Source of the DNA: Promethearchaeota archaeon
GTDB lineage: Archaea > Asgardarchaeota > Lokiarchaeia > Sigyniarchaeales > SOKP01
Assembly: GCA_048937405.1 (NCBI GenBank)
Contig: JBHLNF010000001.1
Span: 256,001-320,000, forward strand
Length of the DNA stretch: 64,000 bases
Direction: 5' to 3'
The notes below the pieces were generated by a model. That model did no database searches and had not been told where the DNA came from. It saw only the letters and a list, made by a program, of their open reading frames with translations. The position numbers and the translations under genes are program-made. Positions 24,831 through 58,660 of this stretch are shown piece after piece (position 1 is the first letter of the stretch; the number at the start of each line of letters is the position of its first letter).

Positions 24831-25117
24831 AAAACCACCTATTTATTTTTTAATTTAATTTTTGATAAAATATTATAAATAAATTGTTATTTCTTAATAA
24901 ATCTTAATTCTCTTGAGATTGATTATTTGGCTTATTATGAATCTGGAGATTAAATTTAGTTTTCTTAAGAACGATTAAGATGAAAGTAATTCTGAAATAC
25001 TTAGTTCTTTCATATTAAATTGAATAGAACTCATAAAGAAATGTAATTCATAAGTTCAAAAAAAAATAAATATATGTCAATATAAAATTAAAAAAAAAAG
25101 AAAAAGATAGTTTTTAA

Positions 25118-25317
25118 TTACTCCTTTTTAAAAAGATTTCCACATCCCCCACACTTAATAGTTTTAGCATAAACCGGAGTACCCTGCTTCAGCAGTATGC
25201 TTAATTAGCATTACTTATACTGTAGTAAAGCACATTACTCTTATCTGGTTCTTCATGAAGCATTCGTGGATTCTCATTTCCACATTGGGGGCATTTAACT
25301 CTTTTAAAATCACTCAT
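25118..25317 (-). CDS. 56-aa zinc-ribbon protein encoded by two exons (25317-25217 and 25187-25118)
   Basis: Removing 25188-25216 gives MSDFKRVKCPQCGNENPRMLHEEPDKSNVLYYSMQGTPVYAKTIKCGGCGNLFKKE*. The two CxxC knuckles lie in different frames until spliced. Not in the ORF track. Confidence 0.8.
25188..25216 (-). other. Putative 29-nt mRNA intron, relaxed BHB (HBh'/BHL-like)
   Basis: Minus strand CAGT-ATA-[AGTAATGCT AATTA AGCATACT]-GCTG-AAG gives a 4-bp central helix, a 3-nt bulge and an intron stem-loop. Cuts at AT|A and AA|G restore the frame. Confidence 0.75.
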
Positions 25318-25376: not shown

Positions 25377-25907
25377 TTAGGTATTTAGATTGGTATTTAT
25401 TACAATCTCGTGAACAATTTCTTTAATAGTTTTATTTGTGGTATCAATCATAAATTCAGCTGATTTTTCATATAAAGGTTTTCGAAAATTTAAGATTTTT
25501 AAAATTTCTTTCTTAGGGTCTTTTTTATCAATGAGAGGTCTTGTTTCTTTGCCATCCTTTAAGGCTCTCCTGAATATTTCATCTGGAGTGGCCTTTAATA
25601 AGACAATATGACAATTTTTACTTAAATGCAGAATATTTATAGGATTTAAGACTACTCCACCCCCACATGAGATCACAACTTTGTTAAGTTTAGAAACTTC
25701 TTTACACACTAAAATTTCATATTCTCTAAATTTATCTTCTCCTTCTTCTGCAAAAATTCTGGGTATTGACTTACCGGCTTGTTGAATAATAAGTTGATCT
25801 GTTTCGATAAATCTATAATCGTTCCCTAGATAATCAACTAATGCTTTTCCTATTGTGGTTTTTCCAGTAGCCATAAAGCCAATGAGTGCTATTGAATCTT
25901 TTCCCAT
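25377..25907 (-). CDS. aroK: Shikimate kinase (AroK type)
   Basis: GFMATGKTT, FREYE, SCGGG and RPL motifs. Confidence 0.93.
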   Translation of the reverse strand: MGKDSIALIGFMATGKTTIGKALVDYLGNDYRFIETDQLIIQQAGKSIPRIFAEEGEDKFREYEILVCKEVSKLNKVVISCGGGVVLNPINILHLSKNCHIVLLKATPDEIFRRALKDGKETRPLIDKKDPKKEILKILNFRKPLYEKSAEFMIDTTNKTIKEIVHEIVINTNLNT

Positions 25908-57242: not shown

Positions 57243-58660
57243 TTAATTTTCCTTTCTAATAAATTTGATAATCTTTATACGCTTCTCTAATGCTTTAATT
57301 TCTGCTTTTTTAACCTCGTTTTCCATTTTTTCAAGCAACTCAGGTGTCTCTTCTCCAACCTCTTGTTTTATTTTAGTATAGGCAGATTCTCTGAATTTTG
57401 GCAGGATTTCTTTTCTATTTTCATCAGAAAAAGTAAAAAAAACTTGGTTTGAGTCATCTACATATCCTATTTCATCACATTTGATATTAATTCTTTTGAG
57501 ATCAGAGATAATTTTCTCTGCGACGGTTGCTGAGCAATAAATTAAAAGAGCATCTAAAGAAACTCCTAAATAATCAACTCCAACTTTTCTCAACATGTTT
57601 AGAACATTCTGATTTACTAGATTTCTTACTTTTTCTTCAAATATATTTACACCGCATTTAGCTTCATAATTTATCTCATATAAATCTCCTCTTAAACCAC
57701 CATTTGTGACATCACACATTGCTCTAATCTCATCTATATAATCTGAGTTTAAAATAGTTTCACAAGCCTCTAAGAACTTTATATTCATCGTTTCTTTTAC
57801 AACATCATGATTTCCAGAATATATTGCCGTAGTTGTTATTGTTCCACCGCCAGCACCTTCAGTCATTAAGATTTTATCTCCAACTTGTATATTCCTTCTT
57901 GCTAATAACCTATTACAAACTCCTATTGCGCTTATTCCACCGACTAGTCTATTACCAATTACCATATCTCCTCCAATTCTCAAAGTTGAACCAGCGGTTA
58001 TTGGTACATTGGCTAAATCAGAAACTGTCGATACACCAGCTATGAAATCAAATAATTTCCCTACATCAGCGTCATCTCCAAGATGGACATCAATCATTAT
58101 AGAAATTGGTTTTGCGCCTTTAACATAGAGATCTCGTAGTGCGGCTCTCGATACGCTTCACGCAACTTATTACGCGAACTTACGTGAAAACCACACAAGA
58201 ATGGAAAGTCACTTAAACGACTGTGAATACCTTCCATTTTTGATACAATGATTAAATTATCTTCGGCTTTATATCCTTCAATATCACTAATCCTCACAGC
58301 ACCGGCATCATCTAAGGAGCTAGGTGATAGATATGCTCTCTGCTCTGTTTCAGATAACTCTGCGATGAGTTTATGAACAAAAAAGTCGCCTGATCCCCTA
58401 CAACCTATTCCTTGTTTACCAATGGTCACATTTGCCTTATTAATATCTAATAAATATCTCATAAAGGGATCTGAAACTGTCTTTATATCACTTTTTTTAC
58501 ATTCTTCATATATCGCTTCAGCAAGTGAGGTTGCGGACTCTACCTCAATGTCTTTAAAATCCAGATATTCTTTAACAAGACGTAAAATAATTTCTTCCTT
58601 TGTAAAACCTTTTCTCATTAACCTTCTTGTTAAACCTTCTAAATCACTCAAATTGCTCAA
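57243..58660 (-). CDS. AIR-synthase-related (PurM/HypE/SelD superfamily) protein, 462 aa after splicing; exons 58660-58180 and 58150-57243
   Basis: Two track ORFs are halves of one gene: GCRGSGDF, DDAG and GIHSRLSDFPFLCGFHV continue as TRAALRDLYVKGAKPISIMIDVHLGDD in another frame; DVTNGGLRGD downstream. Confidence 0.88.
58151..58179 (-). other. Putative 29-nt mRNA intron with canonical bulge-helix-bulge motif
   Basis: TGTGGTTTTC-ACGT-AAG-TTCGCGTAA-TAAG-TTGCGTGAA-GCGT-ATC-GAGAGCCGCA gives a 10-bp exon helix, 4-bp central helix, two 3-nt bulges and a 9-bp intron stem. Confidence 0.88.

What the first reader, a model, noticed from the sequence alone, without database searches (positions are those of the whole stretch)
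25118..25317. Hidden zinc-ribbon gene with a second 29-nt BHB-like intron
Seen: this apparently intergenic region encodes MSDFKRVKCPQCG...VLYYS, stops at an in-frame TAA inside a hairpin, and resumes in another frame as QGTPVYAKTIKCGGCG...E*. The insert folds with central helix CAGT/GCTG, 5' bulge ATA, intron stem AGTAATGCT/AGCATACT and 3' AAG. The exon side is an internal loop closed by GTGCTTT/AGGGTAC, so it is a relaxed rather than strict BHB. Standard cuts (AT|A, AA|G) remove 25188-25216, create an ATG codon at the junction and join the two CxxC knuckles into a 56-aa zinc ribbon. Ordinary gene callers would miss this gene.
Basis: partly seen in the sequence, partly recalled or inferred. 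Interest (0 to 1): 0.9.

Follow-up and report, generated by a model that had tools for sequence, protein, structure and literature searches.

The report
tRNA-type mini-intron in hidden zinc-ribbon gene
A 56-codon zinc-ribbon gene in this Loki-type Asgard archaeon is interrupted by a 29-base insert shaped like a tRNA intron; comparison with 48 related genomes shows the insert must be removed from the messenger RNA, so the gene is real but invisible to ordinary gene finders.

Summary
On the minus strand, exon 1 (25317-25217), a 29-nt insert (25216-25188) and exon 2 (25187-25118) join into a 56-aa two-knuckle zinc ribbon.

- **Conservation:** I found an ortholog in 49 of the 54 genomes of the genus. 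35 carry an insert of exactly 29 nt at this site.
- **RNA structure:** Across the 35 inserts, the 4-bp central helix and the intron stem are 99% and 91% paired. Nine pairs show compensatory changes, and both bulges are always 3 nt.
- **Splice rule:** Cutting after the second bulge base rebuilds the conserved ATG.
- **Selection:** Exon 2 is under strong purifying selection (dN/dS 0.07).
- **Enzymes:** The genome encodes a catalytic EndA, a non-catalytic EndA paralog and RtcB.
- **Other sites:** Other species carry 30-33-nt inserts of the same shape at three further positions in this gene. One is a diverged copy of intron 1.

There is no RNA-level evidence. The exon-side helix is relaxed, and in this copy a competing hairpin is more stable.

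The scan had already noted similar mini-introns in other genes of this genome (uppS, rnhB, elp3, rpoN and others). The papers I searched report mRNA introns of this type only for crenarchaeal cbf5.

The parts
25217..25317 (-). Exon 1. It runs from the ATG through the first CxxC knuckle (CPQC) and the motif VLYYS, plus the first two bases (AT) of the junction codon.
   Evidence: Conserved in 49 genus orthologs. dN/dS 0.09.
25188..25216 (-). A 29-nt BHB-type intron. It holds the in-frame TAA at 25203-25201.
   Evidence: Exactly 29 nt at this site in 35 species. Absent in 14 congeners and in outgroup families. Helices covary.
25118..25187 (-). Exon 2. It starts with the G that completes the ATG, then encodes QGTPVY, the second knuckle (CGGC), and the stop TAA at 25120-25118.
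   Evidence: dN/dS 0.066 in the post-splice frame among intron-bearing species. No ATG, GTG or TTG start of its own.
25219..25222 (-). 5' strand of the central 4-bp helix H (CAGT, exon 1). It pairs with 25190-25193.
   Evidence: 99.3% of cells paired in 35 sequences; CG, UG and UA variants at the first pair. The Ser codon is AGY in 35/35 intron-bearing genes but TCN in 9/14 intronless ones.
25190..25193 (-). 3' strand of helix H (GCTG, the last paired bases of the intron).
25216..25218 (-). 5' three-base bulge ATA. The inferred cut is AT|A, between 25217 and 25216.
   Evidence: The bulge is 3 nt in all 35 sequences, and its first two bases, A and T, are invariant. The cut rule, between the 2nd and 3rd bulge base, is from PMC2738675.
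25187..25189 (-). 3' three-base bulge AAG. The inferred cut is AA|G, between 25188 and 25187.
   Evidence: The G is invariant in 35 sequences and completes the conserved ATG.
25194..25215 (-). Intron hairpin h'. Its arms are 25215-25207 and 25201-25194, with one bulged A, and the loop AATTA is at 25206-25202.
   Evidence: 90.7% of cells paired; 7 of 8 pairs show changes on both sides, for example AGTA/TACT, GGTA/TACC, GAAA/TTTC, GGAA/TTCC and GATA/TATC.
25229..25233 (-). Exon-1 arm (GTGCT) of the distal exon-exon helix. It pairs with 25179-25183 (GGTAC) across an internal loop.
   Evidence: Predicted by RNAalifold. 94% paired. The only variable pair joins two synonymous third-codon positions: it is paired in 28/35 intron-bearing and 7/14 intronless genes, Fisher p 0.08. 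This is weak evidence.
25179..25183 (-). Exon-2 arm (GGTAC) of the distal exon-exon helix.
25377..25907 (-). Shikimate kinase gene directly upstream on the same strand. It is a conserved neighbour, so co-transcription is possible.
   Evidence: It lies directly upstream in 47 of 49 genus loci; the Pfam family SKI is recorded for a relative.
25090..25110 (-). T-rich tract just after the exon-2 stop. I read it as a likely archaeal terminator.
   Evidence: Read directly from the sequence. Similar T runs follow the stop in the orthologs. The function is inferred.

Best explanation
This is a real 56-codon gene for a small zinc-ribbon protein with two CxxC knuckles. It lies downstream of shikimate kinase, and its pre-mRNA carries a 29-nt intron of the archaeal bulge-helix-bulge (BHB) kind.

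Proposed mechanism:
- The last bases of exon 1 (CAGT) pair with the last paired bases of the intron (GCTG) to form the 4-bp central helix.
- A 3-nt bulge (ATA) and an intron hairpin lie on one side of that helix.
- A 3-nt bulge (AAG) lies on the other side. It is followed by an internal loop and then a distal exon-exon helix, which makes the motif the relaxed HBh' form.
- The genome's two-subunit splicing endonuclease (a catalytic EndA carrying the crenarchaeal-type loop, plus a non-catalytic paralog) cuts after the second base of each bulge.
- RtcB joins the exons, creating the conserved Met codon AT|G and putting the second knuckle in frame.

Shown here: the anatomy, its conservation and covariation in 35 species, the exact junction in intronless relatives, purifying selection on both exons, and the presence of the enzymes.

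Inferred: cleavage and ligation in vivo, and the protein's role. The role is unknown. The protein is a generic nucleic-acid- or protein-binding zinc ribbon, and the same domain is fused to a gelsolin-repeat protein elsewhere in this genome.
For: (1): I found an ortholog in 49 of 54 genus genomes. 35 have an insert of exactly 29 nt at the same site. 14 lack it there and read VLYYS-M-QGTPVY without interruption, as do at least 16 genomes from other families of the order.
(2): removing the 29 nt in silico gives a complete two-knuckle ORF of 54-60 aa in 33 of the 35; the other two (G016, G017) need their site-2 insert removed as well.
(3): 93.8% of cells are paired in the BHB register, against 24-50% when the partner is slid. 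Nine pairs show compensatory changes, and 0 of 500 shuffles reach the observed values. RNAalifold finds helix H and the intron stem unaided.
(4): A and T before the insert and G after it are invariant, and Met at this position is at least 90% conserved in 36 intact homologs. So the standard cut (between the 2nd and 3rd bulge base; PMC2738675) rebuilds a conserved codon.
(5): dN/dS is 0.066 for exon 2 and 0.091 for exon 1 in intron-bearing species, with synonymous sites near saturation.
(6): the Ser codon that supplies helix H is AGY in 35/35 intron-bearing genes but TCN in 9/14 intronless ones.
(7): there are two EndA paralogs. One aligns without gaps to the Aeropyrum pernix catalytic subunit, including the KPR loop region and the Tyr/His/Lys positions. 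The other lacks the His. One RtcB is present. [quoted passage not shown]
(8): inserts of 30-33 nt with the same geometry restore the frame at three other positions of the same gene in other species.
Against: - There is no transcript, circular-intron or peptide evidence.
- The motif is not a strict hBHBh': no helix abuts the 3' bulge (A/C mismatch), and the consensus fold can pair two of the three 3' bulge bases with exon 1.
- For the window's own copy, an alternative hairpin is about 8 kcal/mol more stable than the BHB fold. Only 20 of 35 orthologs have helix H in their single-sequence minimum-energy fold.
- Covariation counts come from related species and so overstate independence.
- The EndA subunit assignment rests on sequence alignment only.
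Confidence: 0.88

Rival explanations
1. The insert stays in the mRNA, and the ribosome gets past it by a programmed -1 frameshift or by translational bypass (hopping), helped by the hairpin.
For: The insert forms a conserved hairpin holding an in-frame stop, which superficially resembles phage T4 gene 60 (my own knowledge). In 16 of the 35 species both frames are open over a 19-nt stretch inside the insert.
Against: - In the window copy and one other species, both frames are open together over only 1 nt. Across species this overlap varies from 1 to 43 nt, and it lies inside the hairpin, not upstream of it.
- There is no X XXY YYZ slippery site and no matched take-off and landing codons.
- Neither a hop nor a shift would produce the conserved Met, yet AT...G is invariant across the junction.
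- Insert length is fixed at 29 nt, and its changes are pair-compensating rather than codon-like.
Confidence: 0.03
2. The locus is a dead or dying gene, or an assembly error, and the insert is junk.
For: The ORF is broken by a stop and a frame change. Gene callers give only stubs for relatives and nothing for this genome.
Against: The same break occurs in 35 independently assembled species. dN/dS for exon 2 is 0.066 in the frame that only splicing provides. Both CxxC knuckles are intact in 35 of 35, in two species only after their second insert is also removed.
Confidence: 0.01
3. The gene is naturally split. Exon 1 makes a 38-42-aa one-knuckle peptide, and exon 2 is translated separately or acts as RNA.
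For: Exon-1 stubs are what public annotation records (P0039-P0043).
Against: - Exon 2 has no ATG, GTG or TTG in frame before QGTPVY.
- A zinc ribbon needs both knuckles. The AlphaFold2 model of an intact ortholog is one hairpin sheet spanning both halves, with the insert site at its turn.
- Intronless relatives are single ORFs.
- The stub's tail, translated from the insert, is not conserved.
Confidence: 0.03
4. The insert is removed from the RNA, but not by EndA and RtcB. Another nuclease, or another route, does it.
For: The 3' site is not in a strict bulge, and no enzyme assay exists. Eukaryotic HAC1/XBP1 shows that other nucleases can excise short mRNA introns (my own knowledge).
Against: The 3-nt, 4-bp, 3-nt geometry and the cut after the second bulge base are exactly the EndA rule. 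At 29 nt the insert is far too short for a group I or group II intron. The relaxed-specificity form of EndA is encoded in the genome.
Confidence: 0.04

Closest known systems
BHB intron in the cbf5 (pseudouridine synthase) pre-mRNA of Crenarchaeota (Watanabe 2002; Yoshinari 2006; Yokobori 2009, PMC2738675)
   Same: It is a short insert inside a coding sequence, with a BHB-like and often relaxed motif. The predicted cuts fall between the 2nd and 3rd bulge bases. The host has a hetero-oligomeric EndA. Presence varies among close relatives, implying gain and loss.
   Different: The gene differs (a 56-aa zinc ribbon, not cbf5) and so does the phylum (Asgard, Loki-type). Four intron positions occur within one 171-nt ORF across species, and one intron appears to be a copy of another. 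Splicing has not been shown experimentally here, whereas cbf5 cDNAs were sequenced.
Non-canonical (HBh'-type) tRNA introns of Asgard and TACK archaea (Marck and Grosjean 2003; PMC5829648; PMC11291895; bioRxiv 10.64898/2026.10.13.758758)
   Same: [quoted passage not shown] For Asgard tRNA introns, high abundance and repeated independent gains are reported.
   Different: [quoted passage not shown] Excision must also restore a reading frame. ARAGORN and Rfam find no tRNA or other known RNA in the window.
Unconventional HAC1/XBP1 mRNA splicing in eukaryotes (Ire1 plus a tRNA ligase; my own knowledge; RtcB's action on HAC1 is cited in PMC5829648)
   Same: A very short intron (26 nt in XBP1) is cut out of an mRNA without a spliceosome and sealed by a tRNA ligase, changing the reading frame of the downstream part.
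   Different: The nuclease is Ire1, which recognises stem-loops rather than a BHB, and the event is stress-regulated. Nothing here indicates regulation.
Translational bypass of phage T4 gene 60 (my own knowledge)
   Same: A short non-coding gap within an ORF begins near a stop codon held in a hairpin.
   Different: There are no matched take-off and landing codons. The junction codon is rebuilt from bases on both sides. The geometry is that of an EndA substrate.

Membership tests
Archaeal BHB (EndA-type) intron | [quoted passage not shown] | tested here: met
   Helix H (columns 25-28 with 54-57) is 99.3% paired in 35 sequences. Both bulges are 3 nt in all of them. RNAalifold recovers H and the 5' bulge on its own.
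Archaeal BHB (EndA-type) intron | Flanking helices h (exon-exon) and h' (intron) directly abutting the bulges (the strict hBHBh' form) | tested here: not met
   h' abuts the 5' bulge and covaries (7 of 8 pairs). On the exon side the first position is an A/C mismatch, and the helix (5-7 bp) lies beyond an internal loop. The motif is therefore the relaxed HBh' form, which the (alpha-beta)2 EndAs accept (PMC5829648).
Archaeal BHB (EndA-type) intron | Cutting between the 2nd and 3rd bulge bases yields the functional product | tested here: met
   The cuts AT|A and AA|G remove 29 nt, restore the frame and rebuild the ATG found in all intronless orthologs. The rule is from PMC2738675.
Archaeal BHB (EndA-type) intron | The host encodes a splicing endonuclease able to cut relaxed motifs, plus an RNA ligase | tested here: met
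   PF01974 matches two loci and PF01139 (RtcB) matches one. One EndA paralog is like the A. pernix catalytic subunit, with its loop region and catalytic positions. The other lacks the His.
Archaeal BHB (EndA-type) intron | Excision and exon ligation observed in RNA | not testable with these tools
   No transcript data can be reached. The spliced 56-aa product was not found by exact look-up in public assemblies, which says nothing either way.
cbf5 pre-mRNA intron | The host gene is cbf5 and the intron sits at the homologous position | tested here: not met
   The host is an unrelated 56-aa zinc ribbon with no Pfam or NCBIfam family above cut-off.
Zinc ribbon fold | Two CxxC knuckles flanking a beta hairpin or sheet | tested here: met
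   The four Cys are invariant in 37 aligned homologs. The AlphaFold2 model has mean pLDDT 82, with strands at 21-33 and 39-47. The nearest solved folds are weak matches to TFIIS, Rpb9 and Rpp21 ribbons, none significant.
Ribosomal protein S27ae (a name some JGI records give to homologs) | Score above the curated family cut-off | tested here: not met
   NF001669 scores 16.7 bits against a cut-off of 54. PF01599 scores 13.2 bits against 22.3.
Programmed -1 frameshift or translational bypass site | A slippery heptamer upstream of the structure, or matched take-off and landing codons | tested here: not met
   Neither is present. Both frames are open together over only 1 nt in the window copy, and that overlap lies inside the hairpin.

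The most novel reading that the evidence does not exclude
In this Loki-type genus, tRNA-type mini-introns are a proliferating element class that colonises coding sequences wherever a few exon bases can supply the central helix. This 171-nt gene alone has acquired them at four positions in different lineages. One instance (G016, after PVY at a CAGTAT site) is a diverged copy of the intron 50 nt upstream, and there have been precise losses elsewhere. That would make the closest archaeal relatives of eukaryotes a living system of mRNA intron gain, duplication and loss driven by the tRNA splicing machinery.
Probability: 0.35. Interest if true: 0.92.

Novelty: new member of a known kind. Interest (0 to 1): 0.8.

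Why it matters
In the papers I could search, archaeal introns inside protein-coding sequences are documented only for cbf5 of Crenarchaeota. Recent work on Asgard introns covers tRNA genes.

Here a second, unrelated gene in an Asgard lineage shows the same kind of intron, with unusually clean comparative support: an exact junction in intronless relatives, covariation across 35 species, and selection on the downstream exon. The scan's other notes suggest many more such cases in this genome.

- **Annotation:** Asgard gene catalogues probably miss or truncate genes. This one is absent or cut to a 42-aa stub in public records.
- **Biology:** The tRNA splicing enzymes appear to act routinely on messengers in the closest archaeal relatives of eukaryotes. 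Intron gain, duplication and loss can be followed between species of one genus.
- **Experiment:** The gene is very small, so an 85-nt transcript would hold the whole motif. That makes it a convenient substrate for testing Asgard EndA specificity.

Tried and rejected
- **Known RNAs:** ARAGORN and Rfam (gathering thresholds) found no tRNA or known RNA family in the window. The insert is therefore not part of a tRNA gene.
- **My error:** One genus-wide pattern search returned nothing because I wrote the wrong number of Ns. I replaced it with a protein search.
- **Dispersed family:** A covariance model of intron 1 found only itself in the window's genome, plus one chance hit (21.8 bits) inside an intact ORF at C10:39455-39489. 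So the intron sequence is not a dispersed repeat family at this sensitivity.
- **Exact look-ups:** Neither the 38-aa stub nor the spliced 56-aa products (window and G036) are in the 15-billion-protein collection. That is uninformative about splicing.
- **Protein family:** Pfam and NCBIfam gave only sub-threshold generic zinc-ribbon hits. Foldseek against the PDB gave no match below E 0.1. The protein's function stays open.
- **False lead:** An apparent split of shikimate kinase in locus L058 looked like another intron but is a run of N.
- **Literature:** Searches for mRNA BHB introns in Asgard or Lokiarchaeota found none. One search was badly worded and useless. PMC3064391 (Tocchini-Valentini 2011) is not held, so I could not check what it says about mRNA.
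- **Rivals:** I considered frameshift or bypass, pseudogene and split-gene readings and set them aside, for the reasons given under the rival explanations.

Full report
**What is in the sequence**

The feature lies on the minus strand. An ATG at 25317 opens a frame that encodes a CPQC knuckle and ends ...VLYYS. It then runs through ATA AGT AAT GCT AAT to a TAA at 25203-25201. The rest of a zinc ribbon (QGTPVY, then CGGC, then the stop at 25120-25118) is open in the -1 frame and has no start codon of its own. Deleting 25216-25188 (29 nt) joins AT to G, makes an ATG codon, and gives a 171-nt ORF of 56 codons. ARAGORN and Rfam find no tRNA or known RNA anywhere in the window.

**Comparative test**

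The window is G000:C7:256001-320000. Its genus holds 54 genomes in the collection, whose record titles are Promethearchaeota or Promethearchaeia MAGs such as Loki_b32 and bin108. Six-frame protein searches found the ortholog in 49 of them.
- 35 genomes, including this one, have an insert of exactly 29 nt at the same site: AGY AT | 29 nt | G CAR GG.
- 14 have no insert there and read ...VLYYS M QGTPVY... straight through.
- At least 16 genomes from three other families of the same order also match without interruption across the junction.
- Met at the junction is at least 90% conserved in an alignment of 36 intact homologs.

Removing the 29 nt in silico gives a complete two-knuckle ORF in 33 of the 35; the other two (G016, G017) need a second insert removed as well.

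**RNA structure**

The 35 sequences align without gaps over 85 columns (A2). RNAalifold, run on the first 19 sequences without guidance, predicted three elements: the 4-bp helix between the end of exon 1 and the end of the insert, a 3-nt bulge, and the insert's own hairpin.

Counting pairs on the full BHB model gave these results:
- 93.8% of cells are paired, against 24-50% when the 3' partners are slid by 1-3 columns.
- Nine pairs have changes on both sides, and 39 such cells are seen against 13 +/- 2.7 in shuffles. None of 500 shuffles reaches the observed values.
- The stem next to the 5' bulge occurs as AGTA/TACT, GGTA/TACC, GAAA/TTTC, GGAA/TTCC, GATA/TATC and GGTTG/CAATC.
- The first pair of the central helix occurs as C-G, U-G and U-A. 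Here the exon partner is the third base of a Tyr codon.

Both bulges are 3 nt in every sequence. The bases A, T (before the cut) and G (after it) are invariant. The species are related, so these numbers overstate independence, but the slid-register control is not affected by relatedness.

The established rule is that EndA cuts between the second and third bulge bases (PMC2738675). Applied here, it gives exactly the boundaries that comparison with intronless genes requires.

**Where the motif departs from the textbook form**

No helix abuts the 3' bulge. The next exon positions are an A/C mismatch, and the exon-exon helix (GTGCT with GGTAC, extendable with wobbles) lies beyond an internal loop. 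The consensus fold can also pair two of the three 3' bulge bases with exon 1. The motif is therefore the relaxed HBh' form.

The only variable pair of the exon helix joins two synonymous third-codon positions. It is paired in 28/35 intron-bearing and 7/14 intronless genes (Fisher p 0.08). This is suggestive only.

In the window's own copy, an alternative hairpin (CAGTAT with ATACTG) is more stable, at -21.3 against -13.4 kcal/mol. Helix H appears in the single-sequence minimum-energy fold of 20 of the 35 orthologs.

**Is exon 2 translated in the spliced frame?**

Pairwise Nei-Gojobori estimates were made among the 33 intron-bearing genes that lack a second insert. They give dN/dS 0.066 for exon 2 and 0.091 for exon 1, with synonymous differences near saturation. 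This excludes a pseudogene.

The Ser codon that supplies three bases of the central helix is AGY in 35/35 intron-bearing genes and TCN in 9/14 intronless ones. That is expected if the exon half of the motif is constrained.

A frameshift or hop is unlikely for four reasons:
- Frame 0 is closed by a stop within or at the end of the insert in 35/35 species.
- Both frames are open together over only 1 nt in this copy. Across species the overlap ranges from 1 to 43 nt and lies inside the hairpin.
- There is no slippery heptamer and no matched take-off and landing codons.
- Neither process would produce the conserved Met.

**Enzymes**

The genome has two matches to the EndA catalytic-domain family and one RtcB.
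- One EndA paralog (197 aa) aligns end to end, with a few short gaps, with the catalytic subunit of the Aeropyrum pernix heterotetramer (E 2e-33). The alignment covers the loop region (GINKPR against DVEKPR) and the Tyr, His and Lys positions.
- The other paralog (200 aa) has Asp-Ser where the His should be.

[quoted passage not shown] The subunit roles are inferred from alignment only.

**More introns in the same small gene**

Three genus members and three metagenomic relatives have a further frame-breaking insert near the PVY motif. In each, a boundary pair that restores the frame has BHB geometry.

| Genome or locus | Insert length | Position | Geometry |
|---|---|---|---|
| G016 (L048) | 31 nt | Inside the Tyr codon | CAGT at\|a GGAA...TTCC GCTG ag\|a |
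| G029 (L015) | 32 nt | Two bases into the codon after Tyr | 4-bp central helix, 8-bp stem; this gene lacks intron 1 |
| G017 (L018) | 30 nt | Same position as G029 | Weaker: 3 of 4 central pairs |
| L059 | 33 nt | Same position as G029 | 4-bp central helix, 4-bp stem |
| L060 | 31 nt | Same position as G029 | 4-bp central helix, 7-bp stem |
| L058 | 31 nt | One base into the second codon after Tyr | CTAG/CTAG central helix, 4-bp exon helix, only 2 bp of stem |

A covariance model built only from intron 1 hits the G016 second insert at 29.3 bits (E 2e-7). The match includes a compensating GGTA/TACC to GGAA/TTCC change. So that insert looks like a diverged copy of intron 1 placed at another CAGTAT site. 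Its sister species G014 lacks it.

The same model finds nothing else real in the window's genome. The introns therefore share a shape, not a sequence family.

**History**

On a tree of the adjacent shikimate kinase (48 rows, midpoint root), intronless copies fall into three groups nested among intron-bearing ones. Well-supported branches force at least three or four changes of state. Because the outgroup families lack the intron, it arose within or at the base of the genus. It was then either lost precisely two or three times or gained more than once. One neighbouring gene cannot decide which. Several intronless genes still have CAGT ATG at the site, as expected after a precise loss.

**The protein**

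No Pfam or NCBIfam family reaches its cut-off; only generic zinc-ribbon models score. An AlphaFold2 model of an intact ortholog (mean pLDDT 82) is a long beta hairpin between the knuckles, with intron 1 at its turn. Foldseek gives only weak, non-significant resemblance to TFIIS, Rpb9 and Rpp21 ribbons.

The gene follows shikimate kinase in 47 of 49 genus loci and is followed by a T-rich tract. Paralogous copies of the domain occur in this genome as a 64-aa protein and at the C-terminus of a gelsolin-repeat protein. The function remains unknown; I would guess a nucleic-acid- or protein-binding module.

**Public annotation**

Intact homologs are annotated as 'hypothetical protein' from Promethearchaeota MAGs. 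Intron-bearing ones appear as 42-aa stubs that read into the intron (P0039-P0043). Neither the 38-aa stub nor the spliced product of this genome is on record.

**Comparison with what is known, and novelty**

The mechanism I propose is the one shown for cbf5 pre-mRNA in Crenarchaeota (PMC2738675) and for non-canonical tRNA introns. It is not the cbf5 intron, and it is not in a tRNA. My full-text searches found no report of such introns in protein-coding genes of Asgard archaea. A 2026 preprint on Asgard introns treats tRNA genes only.

The scan's own notes list similar candidates in other genes of this genome: uppS, rnhB, elp3, pfk, rubredoxin, rpoN and mevalonate kinase, plus one at 58140-58195 of this window. 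One follow-up, on uppS, reached the same reading. I did not test those notes.

I file this locus as a new member of a known kind. It carries high interest because of the lineage, the quality of the comparative evidence, and the signs of repeated gain and duplication.

**Verdict**

My confidence that the insert is a BHB intron removed by EndA and RtcB is 0.88. What is missing is RNA-level proof.

Noticed in passing
L048 (G016:C20) minus strand 1429-1464; L015 (G029); L018 (G017); L058, L059, L060: The same 56-codon gene carries further BHB-shaped, frame-restoring inserts of 30-33 nt at three other positions near the PVY motif in other species. The G016 insert is detected by a model built from intron 1 (29.3 bits) and looks like a diverged copy at a second CAGTAT site.
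   Followed up: partly
G000:C14:2612-3226 (L056 13-627, + strand) and G000:C5 (L057 411-605, - strand): The same zinc-ribbon domain (RRKCPxCG...RCGxCG) occurs in this genome in two other places: at the C-terminus of a protein with a gelsolin repeat (PF00626, E 2e-8) and as a 64-aa stand-alone paralog. Open frames of 330-360 aa with this domain recur across the genus.
   Followed up: partly
window 58140-58195: An earlier scan note (e1-5561963) reports another 29-nt BHB-type insert in an AIR-synthase-related gene of this window. This is presumably the 'first' intron implied by the finding's title. I read the sequence but did not analyse it.
   Followed up: no
protein P0033 (68 aa, Logan and ENA assemblies): This homolog reads through a 12-codon in-frame insertion right after PVY, at the second intron site. 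It may be a 36-nt intron without a stop that has been annotated as coding sequence.
   Followed up: no
one search hit table (P0017, P0027, P0032): Some JGI records name homologs 'ribosomal protein S27AE'. The curated S27ae models score far below their cut-offs (16.7 bits against 54), so the name is not supported.
   Followed up: yes
record titles (L061, L068, L070, L074, L084-L086): Several MAGs that carry close orthologs (76-100% identity in most; L068 53%), and so appear to belong to this Loki-type group, are titled Hodarchaeota, Hermodarchaeota or Odinarchaeota in their NCBI records. These look like inconsistent submitter labels.
   Followed up: no
L058 58-535: Shikimate kinase is called as two ORFs upstream of the zinc-ribbon gene in this MAG. 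The break is a run of N (an assembly gap), not an intron.
   Followed up: yes
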